From IMG/VR virus record IMGVR_UViG_3300037722_000745, positions 160,001 to 224,000 of that record: 64,000 nt of DNA. The stretch is one strand, 5' to 3'. Numbering within the stretch: position 1 is the first letter of the stretch; every line of letters begins with the position of its first letter. Shown piece after piece: positions 3,001 through 63,850 of the stretch. Under the pieces are notes generated by a model. That model made no database searches. It had not been told where the DNA came from and saw only the letters and a list, made by a program, of their open reading frames with translations. This DNA comes from a virus. Lineage: Duplodnaviria; Caudoviricetes. A program made the translations under genes and the position numbers.

Positions 3001-3910
3001 CCGACTTGAGCAACGCCACTACAGATTTCGCTAGAGACGCAGTCTCATCCCTGTGGAAAGCCCACGTGGGGGCTACCTTCTCATTGCCCTGGTAAGCGTA
3101 AAGCTTGTAGTAACCCTCAGCAGCGAATAAGCCCAGCAGCCTGGCTTGACCTAAGGTCAAACCAGGGTCAACGGTGTCTCGTAGAACTGGTACCGAAGTG
3201 AAGTCGGTCCTGGACAAATTCTTGGCCTCAACAAACTCACCTGACTTCACCGCCAAGAGCTGCTTGTTCGAGACTCGCTTAGCGTAGTAGCACTCCTTTG
3301 AGCAATAATGCTTACCCAGCAAGAAGGAGATACAGTGCAGACTTCGATGTACTGGCTTAGAGCAGACAACACAGTTAGAAACGGCACGGAACACGAAGAA
3401 CGGATGTTCTCCCGTTACCTCCAGACGTTCTGTAGTCCCACGCGGTTTGATTCTGTAGATCTCTTCAGAGACTTGACGAGACATCACCCGGACTACTTCT
3501 TGCGTGTTCCCTAAGTGGGTGACAACAGAATCCCCCACCTGAACTTGTTCGATGGCCTTCATTGAGCCATCAGCCATCGTGACCAACGTGCCCGGCACGA
3601 AGCAGTTGTTGTTGATGTACTGACTCGTCTCGGGAGTCACATAAAAGTCAGAGTACTTTCGGTTGACTTCAAACCCGTCTACTAGATGACGACCCAGCGG
3701 ATCGGGCGAGTCCGAGACATCCACCGACGCAACGATCGTCGCATGGCTCAGCATGTAACGGGACGGATCGTACTCTTGAAGGATTACCCTGGCTGTGCGC
3801 CTCTGAAAATCAGGTGAGGGGATAACAGCTTTGCTACGCAAGGCGTCCCACTCAGAAAACTTGATGCCAGGCTTTTGGAGCGTGGCTTTGGCGTACTTCA
3901 TGAAGGCCAT
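2..3910 (-). CDS. Prohead (capsid maturation) protease precursor with two inteins; partial, runs off the left edge
   Basis: Hand-translated frame from ATG at 3910 stays open to the window edge (so not in the ORF track). Spliced extein reads YINNN|CDSFERKLL..TFIG..YVEH..GRIIDA..LSMGC..CTKCG..VAEL|CGH..FIEASWVANPAF, resembling phage prohead proteases; it sits in the head module downstream of portal and terminase. Confidence 0.75.
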   Translation of the reverse strand, partial: MAFMKYAKATLQKPGIKFSEWDALRSKAVIPSPDFQRRTARVILQEYDPSRYMLSHATIVASVDVSDSPDPLGRHLVDGFEVNRKYSDFYVTPETSQYINNNCFVPGTLVTMADGSMKAIEQVQVGDSVVTHLGNTQEVVRVMSRQVSEEIYRIKPRGTTERLEVTGEHPFFVFRAVSNCVVCSKPVHRSLHCISFLLGKHYCSKECYYAKRVSNKQLLAVKSGEFVEAKNLSRTDFTSVPVLRDTVDPGLTLGQARLLGLFAAEGYYKLYAYQGNEKVAPTWAFHRDETASLAKSVVALLKSEFGVEAKIHPHSNDNGIHVDTAVNRDLVQFFSHWVPGESKTKRLHSDLLRAPVEVQRELLQGWFEGDGSFTTSKTDFRLTGSTASRSMANQMQMMLHRLGVSSHLTRSETDGRSRVRSEDGSVRIESDPSKRCVSWQVACGGGWLENLVEGTYYEPGYRASLEANGGVQRVPELRFLNGYHLQMVEKIDRFSYSGPVYNLEVAGDNSYLANGVSVHNCDSFERKLLLSSFKTFIGAQSYVEHVQIPELSKGRIIDAAARDVGDSVYIDILIANDLKHAPLIRAIKSGKLGTLSMGCTTSSTICTKCGNVAEDETHLCPCVRYFKGSEFIDGLGIKRKVAELCFVSGSRVVMSDGSRRGVETLQVGDMVVTHKGVPREVTRVFERSYRGPLIAVKAEGVPQTLQVTPEHPFWVLSVRDECACGCGGKLPRPKDFGKARFWRRYLKGHNPNQVVSLSPPEFVFKKAEDLRPGDVLGMPILTEQRVSVSDVDEDRAELLGWFLAEGSFIKHKGQRRGVQFTLNGEDENEVVHRLAGLLEKCFTPEQRLTSPPKRRSHGRGNATDSLLNALKTPKLTCDLKQIFPSSYVGAILRRYARKGIVSSRPLEPGERLDVKGRRRSRARVWCSLQDEALSERTTNYEANSGRKHLAKLTQYNARARCEPRVHLYKRTEGGLKLVVAYNNTSAADWFYRHAGEYSDSKRLSEEALYWPVRLQRQILKAYVHGDGSVDRVARHYGSSVSETLVSQMQLVSARCGFWTRRQVVYEGRSVEIAQVVNGDACVGIDGLKPRHELHFQPSDETTQFFGFDVDHERGTGPRWRSFRGYMLYSIRGLSRRTYDGKVYNLAVDQDESYLVEGLASHNCGHYTDPNSVRFIEASWVANPAFKGAVLRNIITHGVPEGVERQLHKAFLMPTPVVDPSHMSRAARWTLGQEEDFTDTFEPETESSPEVEEDPVDKAVSDLTDAIREKAIRKVRDEISKSEVDEIRTHDPNTQNDTLIRSAL
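425..1978 (-). mobile_element. Intein 2 of protease (518 aa, LAGLIDADG homing endonuclease)
   Basis: Starts CFVSGSRVVMSDG, TPEHPF, LLGWFLAEG and AYVHGDG, ends VYNLAV..ASHN followed by Cys+1. Confidence 0.92.
2351..3604 (-). mobile_element. Intein 1 of protease (418 aa, LAGLIDADG homing endonuclease)
   Basis: Starts CFVPGTLVTMADG, block B TGEHPF, LAGLIDADG-type LLGLFAAEG and GWFEGDG, ends VYNLEV..SVHN followed by Cys+1. Confidence 0.92.
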
Positions 3911-4287
3911 CAGGCCCCTCCCGAGGAAGCAGCAATACCCATGTAGTCTTCTGGGTGTCGTGCTTGGTCCTCCAGGACCTCCAAAAGCTCCCCAGCTTCC
4001 ACGACAGCGTCCAACACAAACGTTGTGATGTACTTGTGGATTGCGTGCATCCGATGAGCCAAACCTCTAGCCTCTCGTAAGCGATCCGGAGGCAGTGGAA
4101 GAGGTGCCTTGTCTAAAGACGCAATAACATCCCCGAGAATATCGAAGTCCCTTAAGTAGTTAGCCCGATCCAAATCTTGGAGCACACGTTTCAGCTGCTG
4201 AGCCTGGGGGCCTGGACGTAGCAGCCCTCTAGCACGCACTTCCGCCGCATAACGCCGAACCACCCTCTCTTTGACAGACGCTACCAT
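3910..4287 (-). CDS. Hypothetical protein (head module)
   Basis: 125 aa ORF whose stop overlaps the protease ATG; same strand as neighbours. Confidence 0.7.
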   Translation of the reverse strand: MVASVKERVVRRYAAEVRARGLLRPGPQAQQLKRVLQDLDRANYLRDFDILGDVIASLDKAPLPLPPDRLREARGLAHRMHAIHKYITTFVLDAVVEAGELLEVLEDQARHPEDYMGIAASSGGA

Positions 4288-5012
4288 CCGAGGGGCTCCC
4301 CCTGCGGACCAAGAAGCGCGTCAGATTTCACAAGGAAGAGATCTCTGGGGCATGCAAACAACCGGATCCGATTACCCTCGGCCATCTTGTATGTCGTCCG
4401 ACGCATCGTTGCGCCGCACTTCGGACAGGAAGGCTTACCCAACTTCAGCTCGTTCTGACTAACCCTGTACTGCCGATTCTGGGCTACCCAATAGGCGGCA
4501 CTCTTGTGGGCAAATTGCTGAAGGCGTAGATCTGCCAACCTAGAGGCTACTTGGTAGAACAATCCAACTTCTGACCTGAGATCCTCATCCAAGACTCCCT
4601 GAGCGGCATAGCGATGCCACAACGTATCGTAAGCCGTTACCTCATTCCCACCTTGGCCCCATAGTCGAGCCAACTCGTGGTAGAACCCGACCGGCATCCT
4701 AGCCCCCTTCCAAAAGGGCCGTCCGCGCAGAGATGCCCAGCGCTCTCGATCTCTTCGACTGTCGTAACTGTCATACGACTGATCAAACGTTGGCGAGAAC
4801 CATGAAGTGATCTTGGGATCGACTCTCACCAGTTCGTCTGGAGACAAACGCTCATTGCCATAGGGAAACTGAACGTCGATTTGCCCCAAACCTCGGTGGA
4901 CACACGTGACATAACCCACATAAGGCGAAAGCGAGTCACCCGAGCTAGGGGCGAATCTCTGCACAGCATCGCCTCGCTTGAAGTCCCTGACGAGCTTCCA
5001 AAAGTCAATCAC
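4281..5012 (-). CDS. Hypothetical protein with C-terminal Zn-ribbon
   Basis: 243 aa; CPKCG...FACP motif; overlaps the next gene. Confidence 0.7.
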   Translation of the reverse strand: MIDFWKLVRDFKRGDAVQRFAPSSGDSLSPYVGYVTCVHRGLGQIDVQFPYGNERLSPDELVRVDPKITSWFSPTFDQSYDSYDSRRDRERWASLRGRPFWKGARMPVGFYHELARLWGQGGNEVTAYDTLWHRYAAQGVLDEDLRSEVGLFYQVASRLADLRLQQFAHKSAAYWVAQNRQYRVSQNELKLGKPSCPKCGATMRRTTYKMAEGNRIRLFACPRDLFLVKSDALLGPQGEPLGW

Positions 5013-5052
5013 AGGCTAGGCCCTCTGTCTCCCTAAACGAGGTAACGTCCTA

Positions 5053-7872
5053 TCAAGGAGCGAGCGGACGACCGTTCTCAGCCTTACCCTGATGAACACC
5101 AGAGGAGTCGTCGCTTCGATACGCATCCATGTAGGGCTCGTCCGCATCCGTCTGATGAGGCTGCTGGGGATTTTCAAACGTATCCATGTAGGGCTCGTCC
5201 GTCTCCCGTTGGATCACCTGCGCCTGACGGATCGTCATGGAATTCTCACCGTAGGCCGCCACCTCCAGCTCATCAGCAATTCGGTCAATCTCGTTGACTA
5301 GACCCTTTGCCTGCTCGAACCCCATACCCCACTTCCCATGTTGCTCTTGGACCGTTGAAGCAACGCGATCCAAACGAGCCAACAGGCGATCAGCCATAGT
5401 GGTCTCTAACTCGATCTTCTTGGGCATCTCATTCCTCACTGTTCTCGCGGGTGACCCCGCCGTAACCGTTGTCAGAGTCTCGTCGAGCGACTTACCTGCG
5501 AGTCGAGCGAGCAAGTCGTTGTAGACTTTAGGGTGGATCGCATTGCGGTAGTTATTTGCCTGGATCGCTAAATCAAGGGCTGCCCGCAATTGCGTGTCTC
5601 GAACGATCCCGTCGACCTGCTGAGACAAAACTGGGCTGTTTAGCCATTGTCTGGCCGCGGTGAGGATCCGATCCAAGTCGGCTTCGCCCAGATCCCTGGA
5701 CTGAGGCTGAGACCACCCCGGGTGCGTGACAACCTCGGGCTCGACTCCCCAGTAAACAGCCTGGCGGTTCCGTTCCATCGCAATAGTATCGGAATAAGTA
5801 AAAAACGACCCCACAAGAGACCGAACAGCCACCCTGGCCGCTGTTCGTCTCTGGAACCGCTCCCAAAGATCAAGCGAGGAGGCCGCTAACTCCTCTGGAT
5901 GCTGCCTCCTCAGGTCATAGTGGGGTGGTTTGACCGGCTCCTGAGGTTCTAGGATCCCCTCAGCCGCTAACCTATCCAAGGTCGACAAAGGGGGGTCGCT
6001 ATCATCCACACCATCGCGCAGCCGAGAAGAGTACTCCTGGTAATCGCGTTTGAACGCACGACGAGCGTGCTGTTTCGCTTCCTCGTACGCTCGCTGGGCT
6101 CGCTTGTACTGCTTCAACGCACGGTCGTAATACCGGTTATCCTCTTCGTCCAACAGCTCTTGTACAAGCGGCAGTTTCTCTGGGGCCAAAGTCCCCAAAT
6201 GTCTCATCACGCGGGCTCTGAACGTGGTCCCGGTGTCTTGAGAAAGACCTTCGGGGTACCGTAAAGCGCGGGCCCGAAGAAAATCCATCGCTTTAGCGAT
6301 CCGGGACGCAATCACATCCGGAGACTGCCGCTCAGAGATATGGTCCTCAGACCTGGGATCTAGGAACCGTCTACGAGCCTCATTGTAATCGTGAGCCTGA
6401 AAATACCCGACCGCCAGCCGCTGAGACGCCGGGTCCTTTACGGCCCTCAACACCTTCTTGACCGCCCCCGCGGACACAGGCTTTACAGAGCCAGGAGAGG
6501 CTTCCAGGCCCTTGTAGAACAGCGCCTCGGCCTCATGGGTAGCCCGTTTCTGGCGAGCCTCTGGAGCCTCGCCATGCCCCGTCAGCATGAAAGACGCTAG
6601 ATCGCTAGCTAACTCTCTAGGCGCTCCCGCCTTGTGTTCTAATGTGTCCCCAATCACACGATGAGCCGCAAGACTCATCGCAACCGTCTGGAGCTGGTGC
6701 CTTCTCAACGCTTCGGCTTGCTTCTCACCGTCCAATTCCCCAAATGGAACGTCCCTACCGTCCCTGGAAACCGTTTTCGGAGGTCGAACCTGATTTGGGT
6801 TAGTCGTGTAGAATCTGGAGACTGCAGACCTCAAACCCTCAACATTACTAGGTTTTATGGGGAGAGAGCGAGCTTTGTGGTAGTCGCCGATAAGCGTGGA
6901 CACCTCATCCGGGTGCAACGGGGGCCTGATTAGCAGCAGATCGACAGCTACATCCGCTGGAAACGTCCTGACGATCTGCAGCTTAGCCTCGTCCCGTTCT
7001 CCCCTCGAAACTGGCCTTCCAGGGCTCCCCTTGGGCGGTAGAGGTTCACGAGGACCTTGAGGCTGGGGTCTGCCCCCACCGCCCGATGGAGGCCCTTGTG
7101 GGGGCTCAGGAGAAGGTTTACGGGAGGGTTGACCTGAACTCGGGGCTAAACTCGGCTTGTACAACAAGGATTGCTGAAGGTCGCCTAAAGTGACAATGCC
7201 TTTTGGCGGCGTTCGGCCCCTCAAGAACTGCTCGACGGGGATCTCCGGACGAGCCTTCGCCATCTGAAACATATCAGCGTTCGGGTTCGTGAAATCCTTG
7301 AGGACAGCGGCAAACTCTTCGTCTGCTTTTGCCATCTCTTGCAACGACTGATGCAGCTTCTCGTAGTTCTTAGGCCCCGCTCTAGGCTTGGGCTCCACTT
7401 CGGGTGTGGTTGTTGTCTCCTCGTCGTGCTCTAGCTCCTCATACTTACCTGGCTCCCTACGCAACGTATCCGGAGACACCTGAACAACCTGACGGGGGTT
7501 CGATTTCAGACGGACCGTGATCAGGTCACGCTTCTCTGAGCCCCCTATGGTCTTGTAGTTCTTCGACAGGTCAGGATCGCTCTCAACCGTGTCAGGATCC
7601 TTCAAGTCTGGATCCTGATCAGTCTCAACACGCTCCCGACGGCGGTCGTGACGAGGCGGTTTGACCTTAGGGCTCGTACGAACCAGACGCTCGATCTCCT
7701 CGTCCTCACGTTCCCCCTCAGATTTGGTAGCGAATCTACGCGCCACTTCGTTCCGAGAGGGCCGCAGGGTCTCTTCACCCGTGAGCAAAGGACCACCAGC
7801 GTGAATATCCACCTTCGGCGGTTCCTCCGCCACAAGCTGGCGCAGTCTTTCGTGAGAGATCCCGATCCTCAT
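5053..7872 (-). CDS. Large hypothetical, probably virion-associated, protein
   Basis: 939 aa ORF immediately downstream of portal; Pro-rich linker, acidic tail. Confidence 0.65.
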   Translation of the reverse strand: MRIGISHERLRQLVAEEPPKVDIHAGGPLLTGEETLRPSRNEVARRFATKSEGEREDEEIERLVRTSPKVKPPRHDRRRERVETDQDPDLKDPDTVESDPDLSKNYKTIGGSEKRDLITVRLKSNPRQVVQVSPDTLRREPGKYEELEHDEETTTTPEVEPKPRAGPKNYEKLHQSLQEMAKADEEFAAVLKDFTNPNADMFQMAKARPEIPVEQFLRGRTPPKGIVTLGDLQQSLLYKPSLAPSSGQPSRKPSPEPPQGPPSGGGGRPQPQGPREPLPPKGSPGRPVSRGERDEAKLQIVRTFPADVAVDLLLIRPPLHPDEVSTLIGDYHKARSLPIKPSNVEGLRSAVSRFYTTNPNQVRPPKTVSRDGRDVPFGELDGEKQAEALRRHQLQTVAMSLAAHRVIGDTLEHKAGAPRELASDLASFMLTGHGEAPEARQKRATHEAEALFYKGLEASPGSVKPVSAGAVKKVLRAVKDPASQRLAVGYFQAHDYNEARRRFLDPRSEDHISERQSPDVIASRIAKAMDFLRARALRYPEGLSQDTGTTFRARVMRHLGTLAPEKLPLVQELLDEEDNRYYDRALKQYKRAQRAYEEAKQHARRAFKRDYQEYSSRLRDGVDDSDPPLSTLDRLAAEGILEPQEPVKPPHYDLRRQHPEELAASSLDLWERFQRRTAARVAVRSLVGSFFTYSDTIAMERNRQAVYWGVEPEVVTHPGWSQPQSRDLGEADLDRILTAARQWLNSPVLSQQVDGIVRDTQLRAALDLAIQANNYRNAIHPKVYNDLLARLAGKSLDETLTTVTAGSPARTVRNEMPKKIELETTMADRLLARLDRVASTVQEQHGKWGMGFEQAKGLVNEIDRIADELEVAAYGENSMTIRQAQVIQRETDEPYMDTFENPQQPHQTDADEPYMDAYRSDDSSGVHQGKAENGRPLAP

Positions 7873-50045: not shown

Positions 50046-52038
<1,993 letters not shown>

Positions 52039-52045
<7 letters not shown>

Positions 52046-52148
52046 TCCCCACCGGCTACACATGGGCGACCAGCACGCCCGCGGAAGAGACGAACTCCGG
52101 GTGTGATGGTAGCACTGTGGCGAGTCATGTCCAGCACTCCCCACGCCC
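52039..52148 (-). CRISPR. Left part of degenerate type I-E-like repeat cluster
   Basis: Half repeat 52131-52148 (interrupted by the insertion), a 7-bp-deleted repeat 52070-52092 and a partial repeat 52039-52052. Confidence 0.6.
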
Positions 52149-52213
52149 GGGTAGTGGGGTGAATCGGATTCCGCCCACCCGGCCGGCCCCCTCCGGCCCT
52201 ACGCTGTGGTCCG

Positions 52214-52558
52214 ATGGGCATTCTACGCGAACGCGTGGTCCGCGGCAGGACCCGCCAAGACCGCGAGCCGCGCGGCTTCCAGCTCACCTCAACCGAGGCC
52301 GCCAACGTCAAGGTTGCCCTGCTCCATTTGCGGGCCCAGCACGGGTGCTGGCGCGAGGTGGCCCGCGTCATGGGTTGCACGAAGAGGGCCCTGGAGAAGG
52401 CCGCAGAGACCCGGCGGCGACCGTCCCCGGGCTTGGCGCTCCACGTGGCCCGAGCGCTGGGCTTGCCCGTGGAGGCGATGCTCACCGGGGCGCGGTCGGA
52501 GCCAGGGAGCTGCCCGATGTGTGGGCGGGCGAGTAGCAGGGCTCAACTGTCTAGGTAG
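52214..52558 (+). CDS. XRE-type HTH protein with C-terminal CPMC
   Basis: WREVARVMGCTKRALEKA...PSPGLALHVARALGLPVEAML. Confidence 0.7.
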   Translation: MGILRERVVRGRTRQDREPRGFQLTSTEAANVKVALLHLRAQHGCWREVARVMGCTKRALEKAAETRRRPSPGLALHVARALGLPVEAMLTGARSEPGSCPMCGRASSRAQLSR

Positions 52559-52819
52559 CGATGGAAGTTGCTCGGATGAATGTAGAGCCTAGCCAGCCAT
52601 GACCTGAGCACGCTCGGCATGATTCTCGTGTCGTCGTCCTCTTCGATCGGCAACACGAGTTTGATCTCCTCGTACTGTCTGTCTGTGGAGATCTCTCACA
52701 ACGCACTCCTCGCCGTTGATCATGCGCGTTGCAGACGTGACGGTCACGCCGTGCTCACGGCACACTTTCTCGACGAACTCCCGGACCGTAATCGACGGCC
52801 CGAATGGGAATGCAGGCAT
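52543..52819 (-). pseudogene. Frameshifted HicA-like toxin
   Basis: (ACAG)3 tract at 52675-52686; removing one unit joins MPAF..DLHRQ to YEEIKLVLP..PSVLRSWLARLYI, giving a 90 aa protein downstream of the HicB-like gene. Confidence 0.55.
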
Positions 52820-52830
52820 GACGGCCTATT

Positions 52831-53178
52831 CTAGGCCGATAGTCTCAATTTGCTAGCCGTTGCGTGGATGATCCACGGCGGCGGAACATCGGGTGCCACG
52901 GTTGGCCCCAGCAAATCCACGGCGCCGCCCAATGGGCGAGCCTCCCTGAACTTCTCAAAATAGTGGCTGGGTGCTCTCGGGACGTCTTGCATTGGGTCCT
53001 TGCCCAGCTCGATATTGGCAGCCGCTTGGTTGACAAATGCGCGCTGCCAAGATGCAAGCACGGCGTCCAAAGAAGTTCCCTGTGCCGCGACATCAAACTC
53101 TAGACACTGAGCAACCCACGTGCCTTCTTCAAGAAGGATGACAATGCTCAAGTCCTCAAACTTCCAGCTCTTTTGCAT
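52831..53178 (-). CDS. HicB-like antitoxin
   Basis: IVILLEEGTWVAQCLEFDVAAQGTSLDAV, the HicB N-terminal partial RNase H pattern. Confidence 0.7.
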   Translation of the reverse strand: MQKSWKFEDLSIVILLEEGTWVAQCLEFDVAAQGTSLDAVLASWQRAFVNQAAANIELGKDPMQDVPRAPSHYFEKFREARPLGGAVDLLGPTVAPDVPPPWIIHATASKLRLSA

Positions 53179-53356
53179 AGTCGCGCGGTTTTCTTGACAA
53201 GAGCGAGAGCGTTCGCCCTAGTGCGTCTGTAATAGTAGGGGCCACGGCGCTCAGCGGCAAGCGCCGCTAGCATGCCGAGACCGTATGCGCAAACCATGCA
53301 CAGCCGCAAAATAAGCGAAAAAGCGCGTGCCCCTGAACATTCTGCGAGTTCTAAGG

Positions 53357-53551
53357 CTAGCTTGTCGCTCGCTCCAAAAGCACCGATCTCGCCCACTGGG
53401 TTACGGGCTGTCCCGCCCTCGCGGCGGCTTCCGTGATAGCCGCCCGCTCTCCGTCGCTCAGCCTGATCGCGAAGACCGACTTCGCAGCGCCCTTCGGCAA
53501 CGGCGGCCTGCCGATCCTCGCCTTGGGCGGTGACCCAGAGTCAACATTTGT
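53357..53551 (-). CDS. Small ribbon-helix-helix protein (not in ORF track)
   Basis: Hand translation GRPPLPKGAAKSVFAIRLSDGERAAITEAAARAGQPVTQWARSVLLERATS*; start uncertain (in-frame TTG at 53500). Confidence 0.6.
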   Translation of the reverse strand, partial: TNVDSGSPPKARIGRPPLPKGAAKSVFAIRLSDGERAAITEAAARAGQPVTQWARSVLLERATS

Positions 53552-53597
53552 TTAGAGTGTTGTCTAAATTTAGCCCTCGTGGTAATCGACTCTTGGT

Positions 53598-54827
53598 ATG
53601 ACGCCTCCCGGGTTTTCTAATCCTTTCCGTCCTGGGGCAGGTCACCAGCCTCCTTACCTGGCTGGTCGGTCGCGGGAAACTAATGAATTCAAAATCTTAC
53701 TGGATCAGGACGTGATTCTGAACAGTCTGGTCCTGACGGGGCTTCGGGGGACCGGAAAGACAGTCCTGCTAGATACCTTCAAGCCTATCGCGATCTCCTC
53801 AAAGTGGGTGTGGGTGGGAGCGGACCTCTCTGAGTCGACTAGCATCAGTGAAGAACGGATTGTGAAGAGGCTTCTAGCTGACCTCGCGATCGTCACCGCT
53901 AGCATCCAGATCAGCGAACACCAGCGCAAGCAGATCGGCTTCGGTGCTGGCACGACAACGGTCCCAATCTGTCTCGACTATTCCGCGCTTGATGCGGTGT
54001 ACAAGGCCACTCCAGGATTGCCTGCCGATAAGCTGAAAGCCGTACTGCAGCTGGCGTGGTCAGCTCTCAAGCCGCTAGGACACCGAGGGATCGTCTTCGC
54101 CTACGATGAGGCGCAGAACCTCTCAGACCATGCTGCGAAAGAGGAGTTTCCACTGTCGCTCCTCCTCGACGTATTCCAGTCGCTTCAGAAGCATCAGCTC
54201 CCATTCCTGCTTACCCTGGTTGGGCTACCAACCTTGTTTCCGAAGTTGGTGGAGGCGCGCACTTTCGCCGAGCGCATGTTCCGGGTTGTCTTTCTCGACA
54301 GGCTTGGGCGCCAGGATTGTAGGGACGCCATCCTGAAACCAGTCCAAGACGCTCAATGCCCCATCCAACTCGACGACCCGTCCGCCGAACACATCATAGA
54401 CATTTCCGGCTGCTACCCGTACTTCATCCAGTTCATCTGCCGAGAAGTCTATGACGCGTTCCTGCAAGGGCAGACACGGGTACCTGTTGACGAGATAACG
54501 CGAAAGCTCGACAGCGACTTCTTCGCCGGTAGGTGGTCGCGCGTCACCGACAGACAACGCGAGCTTCTCAAAGTAGTAGCCTCTCTGGAAAGCTCCGACG
54601 GCGAATTCATGGTGCAGGAGATCGCAGAGAAATCGAAAGAGCTGACTAAACCATTCAGTCCAAGCCACATCAACCAGATGCTAGTCACTCTCGCGAACAA
54701 CGGCATGATCAACAAGAACAGGCACGGGAAGTACTCCTTCGCAGTGCCTCTTCTTGGCCGCTTCATTCTGCGGCAGGCAACCGCTGACAGAGAGGAGGAC
54801 CCTGGAGGGCAACAGCTGCTCTTCTAG
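53598..54827 (+). CDS. AAA+/STAND-like ATPase with C-terminal winged helix
   Basis: NPFRPGAG..PPYLAGR, GLRGTGKT, Walker B YDEAQ, GYP-like CYPYFIQ, wHTH tail. Confidence 0.82.
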   Translation: MTPPGFSNPFRPGAGHQPPYLAGRSRETNEFKILLDQDVILNSLVLTGLRGTGKTVLLDTFKPIAISSKWVWVGADLSESTSISEERIVKRLLADLAIVTASIQISEHQRKQIGFGAGTTTVPICLDYSALDAVYKATPGLPADKLKAVLQLAWSALKPLGHRGIVFAYDEAQNLSDHAAKEEFPLSLLLDVFQSLQKHQLPFLLTLVGLPTLFPKLVEARTFAERMFRVVFLDRLGRQDCRDAILKPVQDAQCPIQLDDPSAEHIIDISGCYPYFIQFICREVYDAFLQGQTRVPVDEITRKLDSDFFAGRWSRVTDRQRELLKVVASLESSDGEFMVQEIAEKSKELTKPFSPSHINQMLVTLANNGMINKNRHGKYSFAVPLLGRFILRQATADREEDPGGQQLLF

Positions 54828-54852
54828 CCAGGAGCTACGGAATTGAAAGACT

Positions 54853-54949
54853 GGAGGGTGACCCGCGGTTGGACCGCTCAAGGGCTCTACATCCTGATCG
54901 GGCCCGGTGTTGCAGCTCCGGTGGGGTTCGAATCCCTCACCCTCCGCCA
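54853..54949 (+). tRNA. Non-canonical (9/3 or 8/4, allo-tRNA-like) tRNA, anticodon CUA, long variable arm
   Basis: GGAGGGTGA/TCACCCTCC acceptor helix, G discriminator plus CCA, T-loop TTCGAAT, D hairpin GCGG..CCGC, anticodon loop CT-CTA-CA (54885-54891). Confidence 0.7.
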
Positions 54950-55257
54950 CCATGATGCGTCTTGCTGCTGGCGTCCGCAAGGATGCTCGCCCGGACCGCC
55001 TCCGCAGCCCCCGTGACGGGCCCCAGCCCCAGCACCGCGAAGAACCGGCGCTTGGTGCCCGTGGTGGCCTCGCTCCACGCGTAGGCCCGGCGCGCCTTGG
55101 GGTGCCCGTCCAGCTCGAACACCTCGACGTCTCCCTCCCAGGCTGTCTCCCCCGTGGGGGCGCGCTCGACTACATGCACAGTCTCGACGTGGCGCGCGGC
55201 GCAGCCGTGAAGGTGCTTGATGGCTTCGAGCAAGGCGTCGGTTCCGGCGGGGTCCAT
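54937..55257 (-). CDS. Conserved-looking hypothetical protein, convergent with the tRNA
   Basis: HGC.A.HVETV..WEGDVEVFELDGHP.A.RAYAWS..RFFAVL; TAGGCT -10 lies 6 nt before the ATG (leaderless). Confidence 0.7.
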   Translation of the reverse strand: MDPAGTDALLEAIKHLHGCAARHVETVHVVERAPTGETAWEGDVEVFELDGHPKARRAYAWSEATTGTKRRFFAVLGLGPVTGAAEAVRASILADASSKTHHGGGG

Positions 55258-55324
55258 GCCGGAAGCCTAACCCGCCCGGCGGCCGTGCCAAGATCGGGGC
55301 GCCGATCAAATCACCCCACTACCC

Positions 55325-55403
55325 ACGCCCGCGGAAGAGACGCCTGAGAGCCCAGTTCCTTCACCTGCGCGGTCCAGCACTCCCCACGCCCGCGGAAGAG
55401 ACG
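55325..55403 (-). CRISPR. Right part of type I-E-like repeat cluster (intact repeat, spacer, half repeat; 61-bp period)
   Basis: Minus-strand repeat GTCTCTTCCGCGGGCGTGGGGAGTGCTGG (29 nt; stem-loop followed by an 8-nt handle); repeat ends at 55342 and 55403 are 61 bp apart. Confidence 0.7.
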
Positions 55404-55849
55404 TTGTCTTGCAGCCTCGCCTCGCAGGCTGCTCTGTACACAGCCACGTCTGCTTCCAGCCTATCGAAGCCTGCGTCCGCAACTTTCGCGAGCCATGGAT
55501 ACGTTCGTAGCAGGCGAAGAAACGCGAGCGCCGCACCCGACTCCTCTCCGCGCTTCCACCTTGCGATGGTGCGTGACGGAAGTTGAAACACGCGCTCAAT
55601 ATAGGCGTTGCTGAGCCCACAGGCATCAAGGTAGACCAGCATCGTTGGTATCGATGCCTTCTTTGAGCTATCCAGCGCTTCTTCAATCCTCGAATCGTTT
55701 ACGTCGGCGAAATCACCGCTTTCTCCGCACATTCGGCACCTCAGCTGCTGCATCTTCCACGAAACGGAAGGGCCATATGGGACAGCGATGTTCTCGCATC
55801 GATCGATCGGTTCGAGTTGGGTAGAACCGCATGCTGGGCACTGAGTCAT
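55361..55849 (-). CDS. MqsA-like antitoxin (Zn-finger + HTH), no cognate toxin seen
   Basis: CPACG...CRMCGE, then AYIERVFQLPSRTIARWKRG..AALAFLRLL; the last codons read through the I-E-like repeat. Confidence 0.75.
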   Translation of the reverse strand: MTQCPACGSTQLEPIDRCENIAVPYGPSVSWKMQQLRCRMCGESGDFADVNDSRIEEALDSSKKASIPTMLVYLDACGLSNAYIERVFQLPSRTIARWKRGEESGAALAFLRLLRTYPWLAKVADAGFDRLEADVAVYRAACEARLQDNVSSAGVGSAGPRR

Positions 55850-55859
55850 AGCTTCTTCC

Positions 55860-55913
55860 CTCCTGCTCAGGCGTCGGGTAGAGCCGGTATTTGTAATTCC
55901 GCCGGAGGTCCAC
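55860..55913 (-). pseudogene. tnpB: TnpB N-terminal stub (IS200/IS605 OrfB)
   Basis: MDLRRNYKYRLYPTPEQE matches the YKYRLYPT.EQ start of TnpB; the rest is absent. Confidence 0.65.
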
Positions 55914-55971: not shown

Positions 55972-57375
55972 TCAATCCGCGCCCTTGAGGTTCGAGACCG
56001 GGTAAAGCCGGTGTTCAACTCTCGCAATCCCCTCCGCCTCTAGAACGGCGAGAACCGCGTCGAGATCCTTGTAGACGTGCCCGCACTCATCAAGCGGCGT
56101 CTTCTTGTGATTGCCCACGATCCCCTCGATCTGGACGCCGCCGAAGGTTCGCTTGACGCTCGCCATCTCGTTGTCGATTCGAGCCTGCTTGTGCCCCAGC
56201 CGGCGCTTCGCTTCTGAGCGGCCTAAGATCCGACCCGAACCGTGGTTCACCGAGCAGGCGGACTTGTAGGCCCCATCTCCCGGGAACAGGATCGCAGCAC
56301 CTTCGTACATCGAGCCCGGAATGAGGCACGGGTGACCCGTAGTCTCCCACGCCGTCCCTACCAGGTCAGGATGCCCTGCCGGAAAGGCTCGGGTTGCTCC
56401 CTTCCGATGCACGAAGCCCCGCTTGTGGGTCCCGTCGGGCAGCACAAGGGTCTCTTCCTGCACCAGGTTGTGGCTGATCTCGTAGTAGACTTCGAGGTCA
56501 GCGTTGAACACTTCCTGCGTCGCCTCTTGAACCCCCACCACGATCTGATGACGGTTCGCGACCGCGAAGTTGGCCGCCGAGTTGTGGTAAGCCCAGTACT
56601 CTCGACCAAGAGGCTCATCTATTCGAAGCCAGGAATCCTCTCGACGGTTCTTCGGTAACCCCCGGAGAGCGGCCCCTTCGTAGAAGAAGTGGTTCGCCGT
56701 CTGCCAACCGTAGCCCCGCGACCCACAGTGGACCATCACCCAAACCGACCCGTCATCTCGATCGACTTGCATCTCGATGAAGTGGTTGCCGCCACCCACG
56801 CTACCGAGCTGGTCGGACACCTTCGAGTAGGCTTTCTCGATGTGACTTAGATCCAACGTCTCCGGGATCGGGATGTACCGCCGCTCACAGAGCGCCTCGT
56901 TGATCCCCAAAGACTTGGCCCCATATCGAAGCACCTCGTCGACCTGACGAGAGCCCAGCCGCCTCATGAGGGCAGGCCGCTCGGACCCTACGCCGGTCGC
57001 CACCCGCTTCTCGACTTCCTCGACCCACTGCTGACGCTTGTGCCGACTCCGAACCGCCTTGGCTCCAAGGTTCACTTTCATGCAAAGAGCCCCGCACGAG
57101 ATGTCGTAGCCCGAGCCGCCCTGGATGATCGTGTCTTCAGTCACGATGACCGAGCCGACCGGCACGCCGTATCCCCTGTGGCAATCCGGCATCAGGTACG
57201 CCCCAATGACCCCCTCGTAGGACGCCCCGTTCGCGATCTGCTGCCAGACCGACTCTTCCGACGCCGCATAAAGGTCATCCGACAAAAAGGCATGAGCCTC
57301 CACCCGCATCTGCCCAACGCGGGGCAGCACGTAGTGATTGTCGCTGACCTTCTGAGCCTGGTACTTGAAAGACAT
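55972..57375 (-). CDS. rtcB: RNA-splicing ligase RtcB
   Basis: MPDCH.GYG.PVG, GYDISCG, GGGNHFIE, HCGSRG, SHN, HRKGAT, IPGSM, HGSGR, YKD. Confidence 0.95.
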   Translation of the reverse strand: MSFKYQAQKVSDNHYVLPRVGQMRVEAHAFLSDDLYAASEESVWQQIANGASYEGVIGAYLMPDCHRGYGVPVGSVIVTEDTIIQGGSGYDISCGALCMKVNLGAKAVRSRHKRQQWVEEVEKRVATGVGSERPALMRRLGSRQVDEVLRYGAKSLGINEALCERRYIPIPETLDLSHIEKAYSKVSDQLGSVGGGNHFIEMQVDRDDGSVWVMVHCGSRGYGWQTANHFFYEGAALRGLPKNRREDSWLRIDEPLGREYWAYHNSAANFAVANRHQIVVGVQEATQEVFNADLEVYYEISHNLVQEETLVLPDGTHKRGFVHRKGATRAFPAGHPDLVGTAWETTGHPCLIPGSMYEGAAILFPGDGAYKSACSVNHGSGRILGRSEAKRRLGHKQARIDNEMASVKRTFGGVQIEGIVGNHKKTPLDECGHVYKDLDAVLAVLEAEGIARVEHRLYPVSNLKGAD

Positions 57376-63727: not shown

Positions 63728-63850
63728 AACAACCGTAGTTGCAGAATTCACACGGTTTCTCAGAATCCACCCCTGAGGGAGGTGAAAGCCTCCCTCGTAA
63801 TTGAAACACCACTGAATAGGAATCCGGTGTCAGGTTGTGACGTGGATCGA

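What the first reader, a model, noticed from the sequence alone, without database searches (positions are those of the whole stretch)
52131..55342. Transposase-less 3.2 kb cargo element inserted precisely into a CRISPR-type repeat
Seen: perfect 14-bp TIRs and a 6-bp target-site duplication (ACGCCC, the hairpin loop region of the repeat). Removing the element regenerates a repeat 30/30 identical to the one at 55374-55403. The cargo is an XRE HTH, a HicAB-like pair, an RHH protein, an AAA ATPase, a tRNA-like gene and a hypothetical protein, with no transposase or integrase. The TIR core (CCCCACTACCC) itself resembles the repeat (CCCCACGCCC). Inference: a non-autonomous element mobilised in trans, possibly using CRISPR repeat hairpins as target sites, delivering a defence/TA cassette to a phage.
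Basis: partly seen in the sequence, partly recalled or inferred. Interest (0 to 1): 0.78.

Follow-up and report, generated by a model that had tools for sequence, protein, structure and literature searches.

The report
Transposase-less IS1-type cargo transposon in phage
A 3.2 kb piece of foreign DNA in a huge soil and sediment phage is a stripped-down member of an IS1-related transposon family that carries passenger genes. It has lost its own transposase, and its landing inside a CRISPR-like repeat looks incidental, not targeted.

Summary
Window 52150-55323 (3,174 bp) is bounded by perfect inverted ends and a direct duplication, and cutting it out restores a 32-nt repeat identical (32/32) to the copy at 55372-55403. 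Independent assemblies bridge both junctions, so it is not a misassembly.

Relatives change the reading. At least 13 other copies (mostly in Polyangia MAGs; also an alphaproteobacterial plasmid, viral contigs and unbinned metagenome contigs) have homologous ends (GGTAGTGG...ATTTGA). Each full-length copy has the same two small inward-reading end genes; most also encode a roughly 280-aa IS1-family DDE transposase, usually with an RHH gene. Eleven have both flanks, and each has an 8-bp duplication. The ends here are therefore better read as a 13-bp TIR plus an 8-bp duplication (CACGCCCG), not 14 + 6.

In this copy the transposase gene is replaced by a STAND-like ATPase and a 9/3 allo-tRNA-like gene with a CUA anticodon. 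A 32-bp two-end mini-element with its own duplication shows the family can be moved in trans.

Targeting of CRISPR repeats is not supported: none of the other insertion sites is such a repeat. The 32-nt repeat is unique to this phage, with no cognate cas gene found. A weak excess of insertions in short direct repeats remains unexplained.

First readers noted this same stretch twice more, but not on other DNA.

Verdict: new member of a known kind, of moderate interest.

The parts
52037..52052 (.). Partial copy of the left half of the 32-nt repeat (15/15 identical at 52038-52052). It lies in the start region of the conserved phage gene upstream of groEL.
   Evidence: Comparison with the related phage L070 shows that part of this stretch is conserved phage sequence.
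52068..52092 (.). Degenerate 25-nt repeat copy that lacks TCCCCAC. Its start lies 61 nt before the next repeat.
52093..52128 (.). Unique 36-nt spacer-like stretch.
   Evidence: A 23-nt core has no exact match in IMG/VR.
52129..52149 (.). Left part of the interrupted 32-nt repeat. Its last 8 nt (52142-52149, CACGCCCG) are the left copy of the target-site duplication.
52150..52162 (+). Left terminal inverted repeat, GGTAGTGGGGTGA.
   Evidence: Homologous to the family ends GGTAGTGGCCGGATTTGA and GGCACTGGGGTGATTTGA.
52214..52558 (+). 114-aa HTH protein. It is the conserved inward-reading end gene of the transposon family, not cargo.
   Evidence: Weak HTH matches (PHROG transcriptional repressor, E 0.001). 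Homologues at 33-46% identity lie next to one end in L091, L093-L097, L164, L245, L246 and L263.
52589..52819 (-). 76-aa protein, the downstream partner of the HicB-like gene. Function unknown; possibly a toxin.
   Evidence: No family match. 32% identity over 44 aa (pairwise E 3e-5) to the gene that follows a HicB-like homologue in L264.
52831..53178 (-). 115-aa protein with a HicB-N-terminal-like fold (passenger gene).
   Evidence: 869 relatives. AlphaFold model pLDDT 90. Best PDB matches are HicB antitoxin N-domains: Foldseek probability 1.0, E 0.014, TM 0.46/0.60. No Pfam match for the protein itself.
53357..53500 (-). 47-aa ribbon-helix-helix protein. It is the remnant of the transposase-RHH operon of the family.
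   Evidence: Pfam NikA-like E 2.6e-5 and DUF6290. 51-65% identical to the RHH gene that follows or is fused to the transposase in L093, L097, L177 and L263.
53598..54827 (+). 409-aa AAA_16 / STAND-like ATPase with a C-terminal winged-helix-like region. This passenger gene occupies the place of the transposase gene.
   Evidence: Pfam AAA_16 37.6 bits. PHROG 6841 E 2e-58. More than 7,000 homologues at 60-72% identity. Also a passenger of the related element in L091.
54853..54949 (+). tRNA-like gene of 97 nt: 9-bp acceptor stem, 3-bp T stem, long variable arm, anticodon loop CU-CUA-CA, G73 and an encoded CCA. It is an allo-tRNA-like candidate amber suppressor.
   Evidence: Rfam tRNA-Sec 32.9 bits, E 0.0015, below the gathering score of 47. 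ARAGORN finds nothing. The cloverleaf is feasible at -34.7 to -39 kcal/mol. Its 3' part matches phage and bacterial tRNA-Ser genes.
54937..55257 (-). 106-aa conserved protein of unknown function. It is the second inward-reading end gene of the family.
   Evidence: 572 homologues at 60-79% identity. It lies next to one end in most full-length copies.
55311..55323 (-). Right terminal inverted repeat (TCACCCCACTACC on the + strand).
   Evidence: DNA homology to L263 runs from within 6 nt of the terminus through the end gene (75% over 360 nt).
55324..55342 (.). Right part of the interrupted repeat. Its first 8 nt (55324-55331) are the right copy of the duplication CACGCCCG.
55343..55371 (.). Unique 29-nt spacer-like stretch.
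   Evidence: A 22-nt core has no exact match in IMG/VR.
55372..55403 (.). Intact 32-nt repeat. It overlaps the last codons of a weakly MqsA-like ORF (55361-55849, minus strand).

Best explanation
Window 52150-55323 is a transposase-less member of a family of IS1-related transposons that carry passenger genes.

Full-length copies of the family have:
- ends of the type GGTAGTGG(4 nt)GATTTGA;
- a roughly 100-aa gene reading inward from one end;
- a roughly 110-aa HTH gene reading inward from the other end;
- a roughly 280-aa IS1-family DDE transposase, in most copies followed by or fused to a small RHH protein;
- a variable block of passenger genes.

A DDE transposase of this kind binds the two ends and joins them to target DNA cut with an 8-bp stagger. 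Repair of the stagger gives the 8-bp duplication seen here (CACGCCCG).

In this copy both ends, both end genes and the RHH gene are kept. The transposase gene is replaced by an oppositely oriented block holding a STAND-like ATPase and an allo-tRNA-like gene. The element can therefore move only if a related transposase is supplied by another copy, most likely in the host chromosome (the family is found mainly in Polyangia, Myxococcota).

It landed in the second unit of a small CRISPR-like cluster of 32-nt repeats, which lies in a variable spot between rtcB and groEL. The site looks like a tolerated place, not a recognised target.

Shown: the anatomy, family membership, the 8-bp rule, the absence of a transposase, and the real junctions.
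Inferred: supply of the transposase in trans, the host, and any function of the passenger genes.
For: 1. Precise insertion. Excision restores the repeat 32/32, with a perfect 13-bp TIR and 8-bp duplication.

2. Family.
- The end gene at 54937-55257 has 572 homologues.
- In L093-L097, L164, L177, L245, L259-L263 it is linked with a 279-280-aa protein (346 aa in L097, where it is fused to the RHH). This protein matches Pfam DDE_Tnp_IS1 above the gathering score (27-36 bits against 24.1) and NCBIfam transpos_IS1 at E 3e-15.
- Its plasmid homologues (43-47% identity) are labelled IS1 family transposase in RefSeq.

3. Homologous ends. GGTAGTGGCCGGATTTGA occurs in L091, L097, L164, L245, L246 and L262. 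GGCACTGGGGTGATTTGA occurs in L263, whose DNA matches this element from the terminus inward at 75% over 360 nt. GGTAGTGTCTCAGTTTGA occurs in a Hoeflea plasmid.

4. An 8-bp duplication in all eleven other copies with both flanks:
- CGTTTCTC (L091)
- CCTGTTTG (L164)
- CGCCCGGT (L246)
- TCCAGGGA (G004)
- AAACGCTT (G005, an unpublished genome)
- CGTCTCCC (L245)
- GGGCGGGG (L262)
- CCCGCGGG (L093)
- ACCCGCGG (L259)
- AGAGCCGT (L179)
- GATGATTG (Hoeflea plasmid)

5. Trans-mobilisation in the family. L179 holds a 32-bp element made only of two ends, with its own duplication.

6. No transposase here. tblastn with three family transposases finds nothing in the element or in the 323 kb contig. Only the RHH part of the fused L097 protein matches.

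7. Foreign origin. The element's arms are 68-71% G+C against 56% for the phage. Eleven related huge phages keep rtcB followed within 6 kb by groEL, and none of the 32 fetched loci has the element's genes.

8. Real junctions, confirmed in independent assemblies.
Against: - The nearest autonomous relative (L263) differs at three of the first five TIR bases, and no transposase-bearing copy with exactly these ends was found. A working partner for this copy is therefore not shown.
- No second copy of this element and no empty-site allele was seen. It is fixed and identical in every sample that holds the phage, so movement of this particular copy is unproven.
- The IS1 assignment rests on Pfam (just above threshold), NCBIfam (below its cut-off) and RefSeq labels of homologues. 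ISfinder could not be consulted.
- Three of eight fully flanked sites (this one included) lie in short direct repeats, against 1.2% of control positions. 'Incidental' landing may therefore be too strong.
Confidence: 0.82

Rival explanations
1. Repeat-targeting element. The element recognises CRISPR-type repeats or their hairpins and inserts into them on purpose, helped by the likeness between its own ends and the repeat.
For: The insertion is inside a repeat unit. The repeat contains CCCGCGG, and two other copies have duplications CCCGCGGG and ACCCGCGG. Transposons that target CRISPR arrays do exist: Tn7-like elements of cyanobacteria (PMC11837452).
Against: None of the eleven other fully flanked insertions is in a CRISPR repeat, and their duplications share no motif. 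The CCCCAC shared by end and repeat comes from positions that vary within the family. The repeat occurs nowhere else in the 323 kb contig, and two core strings of it give no array-like match in IMG/VR or the JGI metagenome contigs. There is therefore no population of such targets.
Confidence: 0.06
2. Loss after landing. The element arrived as an autonomous transposon and lost its transposase in the phage when the ATPase and tRNA block replaced it. It would then be an immobile relic, not a cassette moved in trans.
For: The gene order end gene - [gap] - RHH matches autonomous copies in which the transposase fills the gap. The RHH gene is truncated at its 5' side, exactly where it would overlap the transposase gene. 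The tRNA-like gene's 3' end overlaps and rewrites the last codons of the end gene. A relative in another phage-like contig (L091) carries both the transposase and the same ATPase family.
Against: No transposase remnant is left. The family demonstrably produces non-autonomous derivatives that transpose (the 32-bp element). The ends and the duplication are still perfect. The data do not order the two events.
Confidence: 0.4
3. Direct-repeat preference. The family's transposase favours short phased direct repeats (periods of about 21 or 61-63 nt), perhaps through DNA shape. The repeat cluster attracted the element because it is a repeat array, not because it is CRISPR-like.
For: Direct-repeat runs of 18 nt or more overlap the insertion point at 3 of 8 fully flanked sites: this window; L246, with a perfect 21-nt unit x 4.3 that starts with the duplication; and L179. 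Only 1.2% of 3,000 control positions in the same loci reach this. A fourth, one-sided site (L177) abuts a 21-nt x 2 repeat and a 63-nt x 2.1 repeat.
Against: The sample is small, most of it comes from MAGs, and the window itself is the case that prompted the test. Without it the count is 2 of 7. Insertions survive better in dispensable repetitive or mobile DNA (the L177 flank is an IS21 istB gene), which gives the same pattern without any targeting. The five other sites of that test lack such repeats, and the four further flanked sites were not put through it.
Confidence: 0.15
4. Artefact or chance: a misassembled junction, or an inverted repeat that arose by chance.
For: One run's contigs (X2) break 5-27 nt inside the left end.
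Against: Independent assemblies from several studies bridge both junctions with no differences. The chance expectation is about 4e-6. The ends are homologous with a whole family.
Confidence: 0.01

Closest known systems
IS1 family insertion sequences and 'transporter IS' (tIS) that carry passenger genes (Siguier, Gagnevin and Chandler 2009, cited in PMC7986276)
   Same: Relatives encode a DDE transposase that matches Pfam DDE_Tnp_IS1 and NCBIfam transpos_IS1. The ends start with GGT. The target duplication is 8 bp, within the IS1 range of 8-9 bp (the range is from my own knowledge). Passenger genes lie between the ends, as in tIS.
   Different: The transposase is a single ORF of about 280 aa with an N-terminal HTH, not the InsA/InsAB' frameshift pair of IS1 itself. 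The family has two extra conserved end genes and an RHH gene. This copy has no transposase at all.
Mobile insertion cassettes (MIC231 of Bacillus cereus, De Palmenaer et al. 2004, cited in PMC4133298) and MITEs
   Same: Ends of an IS family flank genes unrelated to transposition, with no transposase, and are thought to be moved in trans by a resident IS. The family also has a true miniature element of 32 bp.
   Different: MICs derive from IS231 (IS4 family) in Firmicutes. Here the parent is IS1-like, the carrier is a huge phage, and the passengers include a tRNA-like gene. Trans-mobilisation of this copy is not shown.
Tn7-like transposons that target CRISPR arrays (Chacon Machado and Peters 2025, PMC11837452)
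   Same: A transposon sitting inside a CRISPR-type array.
   Different: Those elements encode TnsABC and a TnsD-type target selector, and they integrate at a fixed position in spacers of many arrays. Here there are no Tns genes, the insertion is inside a repeat, and other family copies are not in arrays.
Allo-tRNAs with 8/4 or 9/3 acceptor branches (Mukai et al. 2017, PMC5389517)
   Same: The passenger tRNA-like gene has a 9-bp acceptor stem plus a 3-bp T stem, a long variable arm and G73. It sits beside toxin-antitoxin-like and transposon genes, as that paper describes for many allo-tRNAs of soil and sediment metagenomes.
   Different: That paper lists natural 9/3 anticodons for AGA/AGG, Leu codons and UAA; CUA was introduced by the authors. 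Here CUA is natural, position 37 is C, and the gene is phage-borne.
HicAB type II toxin-antitoxin modules
   Same: The 115-aa passenger has a fold closest to the HicB N-terminal domain and is followed by a small partner gene; the pairing is also seen next to its closest relative.
   Different: There is no HicB C-terminal DNA-binding domain and no Pfam HicA or HicB match. The partner has no recognised family.

Membership tests
IS1 family (as the parent family of the element) | DDE transposase homologous to IS1 InsB | tested here: met
   Met in the relatives, not in this copy. Pfam DDE_Tnp_IS1 27-36 bits against a cut-off of 24.1. NCBIfam transpos_IS1 E 3e-15, 56 bits, below its cut-off of 100. 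Plasmid homologues are labelled IS1 family transposase. This copy encodes none.
IS1 family (as the parent family of the element) | Terminal inverted repeats and an 8-9 bp target duplication | tested here: met
   Perfect 13-bp TIR and 8-bp duplication here. An 8-bp duplication in all eleven other copies with both flanks.
IS1 family (as the parent family of the element) | InsA / InsAB' arrangement with programmed frameshift | tested here: not met
   The relatives have one uninterrupted ORF of 279-280 aa with an N-terminal HTH. From my own knowledge, single-ORF IS1 members are accepted in ISfinder; this was not checked here.
Mobile insertion cassette / non-autonomous transposon | IS-type ends and a target duplication around passenger genes, with no transposase | tested here: met
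Mobile insertion cassette / non-autonomous transposon | Mobilised in trans by a cognate transposase | not testable with these tools
   Only indirect evidence: a 32-bp two-end element with its own duplication in L179, and autonomous relatives with similar but not identical ends.
CRISPR array (for the interrupted 32-nt repeat) | Three or more near-identical repeats separated by unique spacers of similar length | tested here: inconclusive
   One intact copy, one restorable copy, one 25-nt degenerate copy and one 16-nt partial copy. The period is 61 nt twice, but the spacers are 36 and 29 nt.
CRISPR array (for the interrupted 32-nt repeat) | Cognate cas genes, or the same repeat in arrays elsewhere | tested here: not met
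   The repeat occurs only at this locus in the 323 kb contig. A 20-nt core has no match in IMG/VR. A 21-nt core matches only three coding-sequence coincidences in the JGI metagenome contigs. The neighbouring Cas12j array uses a different 37-nt repeat. The contig is estimated to be 68% complete, so a cas gene could lie in the missing part.
CRISPR array (for the interrupted 32-nt repeat) | Spacers that match foreign DNA | tested here: not met
   Exact cores of both spacers give no match in IMG/VR. Only exact matches could be sought.
Allo-tRNA (9/3) | 12-bp acceptor branch split 9/3, long variable arm, G73 or U73 | tested here: met
   Nine Watson-Crick pairs 1-9/85-93, a T stem GGG/CCC around UUCGAAU, an 18-nt variable arm stem-loop, and G73-CCA. 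An 8/4 reading with a G-U pair is equally possible.
Allo-tRNA (9/3) | Recognisable as a tRNA by curated models; anticodon loop fit for decoding | tested here: inconclusive
   Rfam tRNA-Sec scores 32.9 bits, below the gathering score of 47. ARAGORN finds nothing. The anticodon stem has only 4 good pairs and position 37 is C. Expression and charging could not be tested.
HicAB toxin-antitoxin | HicB antitoxin fold next to a HicA toxin | tested here: inconclusive
   HicB N-domain structures are the best PDB matches: Foldseek probability 1.0 but E 0.014, TM 0.46/0.60. There are no Pfam HicA or HicB matches at E up to 0.1. The partner gene was not folded.
Tn7-like CRISPR-array-targeting transposons | TnsA/B/C and a TnsD-type selector; fixed insertion point in arrays | tested here: not met
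   No such genes lie in the element. Other family copies are not in arrays.

The most novel reading that the evidence does not exclude
This IS1-like family may select short phased direct-repeat arrays as landing sites, so that CRISPR-like arrays in phages and hosts are natural targets. In addition, this copy may have turned into a transposase-free shuttle that brings a working amber-suppressor allo-tRNA and a STAND-type ATPase into a huge phage. That would be a transposon-borne tool for reprogramming translation during infection.
Probability: 0.1. Interest if true: 0.7.

Novelty: new member of a known kind. Interest (0 to 1): 0.4.

Why it matters
The case shows how a huge phage picks up host-type genes: an IS1-related transposon family with a fixed frame and an exchangeable passenger block. 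Passengers seen in other copies include restriction-modification genes, GmrSD, HEPN and PIN genes, toxin-antitoxin-like pairs and STAND-like ATPases. The family is found mainly in Polyangia and has entered at least three viral or phage-like contigs. This copy adds a rare passenger, a natural 9/3 allo-tRNA-like gene with an amber anticodon.

The more exciting idea, a transposon that homes to CRISPR repeats, is not borne out. Such homing is in any case already known for Tn7-like elements. The family's frame and its possible liking for direct repeats are small but testable additions to transposon biology.

Tried and rejected
- **Exact scans for the element's left end.** 19 nt in IMG/VR gave no match.
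- **Scan for the 3' part of the tRNA-like gene.** It gave 34 matches, 32 of them ordinary tRNA-Ser genes and two other tRNAs sharing the 3' end.
- **Repeat cores.** A 20-nt core found nothing in IMG/VR. A 21-nt core gave three chance matches inside a coding sequence in the JGI metagenome contigs.
- **Spacer cores in IMG/VR.** Nothing found. Only exact matches were possible.
- **Near-matches to the TIR inside the phage** (window 5918-5938 and contig position 147369). Both lie in unrelated sequence and were set aside as chance.
- **ATPase homologues in 18 viral contigs.** They share only the ATPase gene, with no tRNA-like gene downstream. The ATPase is often a solitary gene, for example inside a mevalonate operon in L092.
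- **Rfam scan of eight related loci.** No allo-tRNA-like gene in other family copies.
- **DNA search for the tRNA-like gene in five genomes that carry the family.** No match, which shows little.
- **TIR pattern in 301 genomes of the class of G003.** Matches in only 3, so the family is sparse in that sample.
- **Empty-site alleles.** No contig of four runs joins across the element. Contigs drop rare variants, so this does not show absence.
- **RNA evidence.** No RNA holder was listed among the sequencing runs.
- **Alternative genetic code.** The phage reads well in code 11, uses TAG as a stop in 64 of 236 long ORFs, and has 42 tRNAs with no canonical suppressor. The amber anticodon is therefore not explained by recoding.
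- **Single-sequence fold of the 115-aa protein.** Too poor to use (pLDDT 50); it was replaced by the alignment-based model.
- **PADLOC.** No defence-system match for any gene of the element.

Full report
**Setting.** The window is bases 160001-224000 of a 323 kb IMG/VR virus record, estimated 68% complete. It is 56% G+C. It reads well in the standard code and carries 42 tRNA genes and a tmRNA. It also carries several CRISPR arrays with three other repeat types; one of them is a Cas12j array and gene 2-5 kb to the right of the finding. All neighbouring phage genes (groEL-like 50046-51650, a conserved small gene ending at 51671, a weakly MqsA-like ORF 55361-55849, rtcB 55972-57375) lie on the minus strand.

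**The observation.**
- At 52129-52149 stands the first part of a 32-nt repeat. It is followed by GGTAGTGGGGTGA.
- At 55311-55323 stands the reverse complement of that string. It is followed by the rest of the repeat.
- Joining 52129-52149 to 55332-55342 gives a string identical, 32 of 32, to the intact repeat at 55372-55403.
Relatives decide for the second reading (see below).
- A 13-nt inverted repeat with an adjoining 8-nt direct repeat is expected about 4e-6 times in 6 kb.
- The same 13 kb, element included, is 100% identical in an assembly from another JGI sample.
- Contigs of further public runs bridge the left junction (X4 51994-53839, X5 51828-52410, X7 52107-52456) and the right junction (X4 54890-55900, X7 55230-55459) without differences.

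The insertion is real.

**Content.**

| Window position | Strand | Feature | Evidence |
|---|---|---|---|
| 52214-52558 | + | 114-aa protein with weak HTH matches | |
| 52831-53178 | - | 115-aa protein | see below |
| 52589-52819 | - | 76-aa partner of the 115-aa protein | see below |
| 53357-53500 | - | 47-aa ribbon-helix-helix protein (NikA-like, E 2.6e-5) | |
| 53598-54827 | + | 409-aa AAA_16 ATPase | |
| 54853-54949 | + | tRNA-like gene | see below |
| 54937-55257 | - | 106-aa protein with no family match | |

- The 115-aa protein has 869 relatives. An alignment-based model has pLDDT 90. Its best PDB matches are HicB antitoxin N-terminal domains (probability 1.0, E 0.014, TM 0.46/0.60).
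- Its closest relative is followed by a small gene weakly similar to the 76-aa partner. 'HicAB-like pair' is therefore plausible but not established.
- There is no transposase or integrase. tblastn with the family's transposases finds nothing in the element or in the whole contig.

**The family.** The 106-aa protein has 572 homologues at 60-79% identity, some labelled Polyangiaceae, mostly on short contigs. Their surroundings show one frame again and again:
- this gene reading inward from one end;
- a protein of about 280 aa, followed in most copies by a small RHH gene (fused to it in L097);
- a variable block of passenger genes;
- a homologue of the 114-aa HTH gene reading inward from the other end.

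The 280-aa protein matches Pfam DDE_Tnp_IS1 above the gathering score and NCBIfam transpos_IS1 at E 3e-15. Its plasmid homologues are labelled IS1 family transposase in RefSeq.

The ends are homologous to those of this element:

| Copy | End sequence |
|---|---|
| L091, L097, L164, L245, L246, L262 | GGTAGTGGCCGGATTTGA |
| L263 | GGCACTGGGGTGATTTGA |
| L093, L259 | GGCACTGTCCTAATTTGA |
| Hoeflea plasmid | GGTAGTGTCTCAGTTTGA |
| This element, right end | GGTAGTGGGGTGATTTGA |

L263 is a 3,732-nt contig that begins and ends exactly at the two ends. It matches this element from the terminus through the end gene at 75%. It is the nearest autonomous relative found.

**The 8-bp rule.** Every other copy with both flanks has an 8-bp duplication:

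| Copy | Duplication | Note |
|---|---|---|
| L091 | CGTTTCTC | |
| L164 | CCTGTTTG | |
| L246 | CGCCCGGT | |
| G004 | TCCAGGGA | two contigs |
| G005 | AAACGCTT | rests on a genome marked unpublished |
| L245 | CGTCTCCC | in the stem of a terminator-like hairpin |
| L262 | GGGCGGGG | |
| L093 | CCCGCGGG | |
| L259 | ACCCGCGG | |
| L179 | AGAGCCGT | 32-bp mini-element |
| Hoeflea plasmid | GATGATTG | |

An 8-bp duplication and ends beginning GGT fit the IS1 family (the IS1 range of 8-9 bp is from my own knowledge). The L179 element consists only of two abutting ends. It carries its own duplication, so the family's transposase acts in trans.

**What happened in this copy.**
- The frame is intact: both ends, both end genes and the RHH.
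- Between the 106-aa gene and the RHH, where L093, L097, L259, L262 and L263 hold the transposase (some with extra passenger genes), lies an oppositely oriented block with the ATPase and the tRNA-like gene.
- The RHH gene lacks the first 16 or so codons that overlap the transposase gene in relatives.
- The 3' end of the tRNA-like gene overlaps the end of the 106-aa gene.
- The same ATPase family (72% identity, the best match in the database) is a passenger of a complete, transposase-bearing relative in the phage-like contig L091.
- The data do not say whether the transposase was lost before or after the element entered the phage. I put the two at roughly 60:40.
- The element's arms are 68-71% G+C against 56% for the phage. 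The family is found mostly in Polyangia MAGs. A host-derived origin is therefore likely.

**The target.** Eleven related huge phages keep rtcB followed within 6 kb by groEL (six with the small gene between them). None of the 32 fetched loci has the element's genes or the MqsA-like ORF, and none has a 25-nt core of the repeat. The spot is variable.

The repeat cluster has one intact unit, one restorable unit, a 25-nt degenerate unit and a 16-nt partial unit. The start-to-start distance is 61 nt twice, but the spacers are 36 and 29 nt. The repeat occurs nowhere else in the contig. Neither core string of it found an array in IMG/VR or the JGI metagenome contigs. Exact cores of the spacers match nothing in IMG/VR.

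In a phage so rich in arrays, an orphan mini-array is believable, but it is not shown. I rate it at about one half.

**Is the repeat targeted?** The other insertion sites are not CRISPR repeats and share no motif. The likeness between end and repeat rests on positions that vary within the family.

One thing remains unexplained. In three of eight fully flanked sites (this one, L246 and L179), a direct repeat of 18 nt or more overlaps the insertion point. Only 1.2% of 3,000 control positions reach this. In L246 a perfect 21-nt unit x 4.3 starts exactly with the duplication. A fourth, one-sided site abuts 21-nt and 63-nt repeats inside an IS21 istB gene. Survival of insertions in dispensable repetitive DNA can explain this, and so could a shape-based preference. 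The sample is too small to tell.

**The tRNA-like gene.**
- It has nine Watson-Crick pairs in the acceptor stem, a 3-bp T stem around UUCGAAU, a long variable arm, G73 and an encoded CCA. The anticodon loop is CU-CUA-CA.
- These are the features that define 9/3 allo-tRNAs. G73 plus the long arm point to charging with serine (PMC5389517).
- That paper also reports allo-tRNA genes beside toxin-antitoxin and transposon genes, and doubts that all of them decode.
- Here the Rfam score is below threshold, the anticodon stem is weak and position 37 is C. Function as an amber suppressor is therefore a hypothesis.
- The phage shows no sign of amber recoding.
- No other family copy examined has such a gene.

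**Comparison with what is known.** The element works like a mobile insertion cassette: IS ends around passengers, moved in trans (PMC4133298). Its parents are like transporter IS of the IS1 family (PMC7986276). Transposons that home to CRISPR arrays are known (Tn7-like, PMC11837452), but they share none of the defining genes or behaviour with this element.

I file it as a new member of a known kind. The family's frame (two conserved end genes and an RHH) may be undescribed, but ISfinder could not be checked.

**Verdict.** Interest is moderate.

Noticed in passing
window 54825-55016: The ATPase gene ends with TAG. The frame stays open through the tRNA-like gene to a TGA at 55014-55016, so amber read-through would add 63 residues. 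This is probably coincidence.
   Followed up: no
whole contig; for example window 63770-63808, and contig positions 61334-61813, 64596-65586, 120212-121203: There are many arrays and lone copies of a 36-nt repeat ending GTAATTGAAAC, in two hairpin-loop variants. A third repeat type lies at contig 243755-244005. The phage is unusually rich in CRISPR-type repeats.
   Followed up: partly
window 55361-55403: The weakly MqsA-like ORF (TIGR03830, E 1.3e-5) reads through the intact 32-nt repeat, which supplies about ten of its last fourteen codons. The ORF is absent from the related phages.
   Followed up: partly
window 52037-52063: The partial repeat copy overlaps the start codon region of the conserved small gene upstream of groEL. 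Part of it (TGTAGCCGG.GGGG on the minus strand) is conserved in the related phage L070, which has no repeats.
   Followed up: partly
L179:109-140: A 32-bp miniature element made of two abutting family ends, with an 8-bp duplication AGAGCCGT. It is inserted in a long degenerate repeat region with a 21-nt period.
   Followed up: yes
L251 and L254 (G306:C3 and G306:C26): A lone family end lies in the same flank on two contigs. The 8 nt before it (GGCCGCCT) recur 30 nt inside it. It may be a deletion derivative.
   Followed up: no
L093:4816-5784 and L094:195-1163: An IS110-family transposase gene lies about 150 nt outside the left end of a family copy.
   Followed up: no
L092:5001-6233: A 69% identical homologue of the ATPase sits alone between a polyprenyl synthase gene and a GHMP kinase gene of a mevalonate operon. 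The ATPase family (more than 7,000 members at 60-72% identity across phyla) behaves like a gene that moves on its own.
   Followed up: partly
L115, L126, L138, L184 (flank next to the family end): Four one-sided copies share a flank ending in (A/T)(A/T)TCG, preceded in two by AGTCCGA. Either a sub-lineage has longer ends or there is a shared target.
   Followed up: no
window 52154-52176 in run X2: Two Logan contigs of run X2 end and begin within 5-27 nt of the element's left end, overlapping by 23 nt. This could mean another copy of the same end in that sample, or only a break in the assembly graph.
   Followed up: no
L266 (NZ_CP011481.1, Hoeflea sp. plasmid) 1561-5784: A complete 4.2 kb family member in an isolate's plasmid, outside Myxococcota, with an 8-bp duplication GATGATTG. 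It carries an XRE-family gene and four hypothetical genes around the IS1-family transposase.
   Followed up: yes
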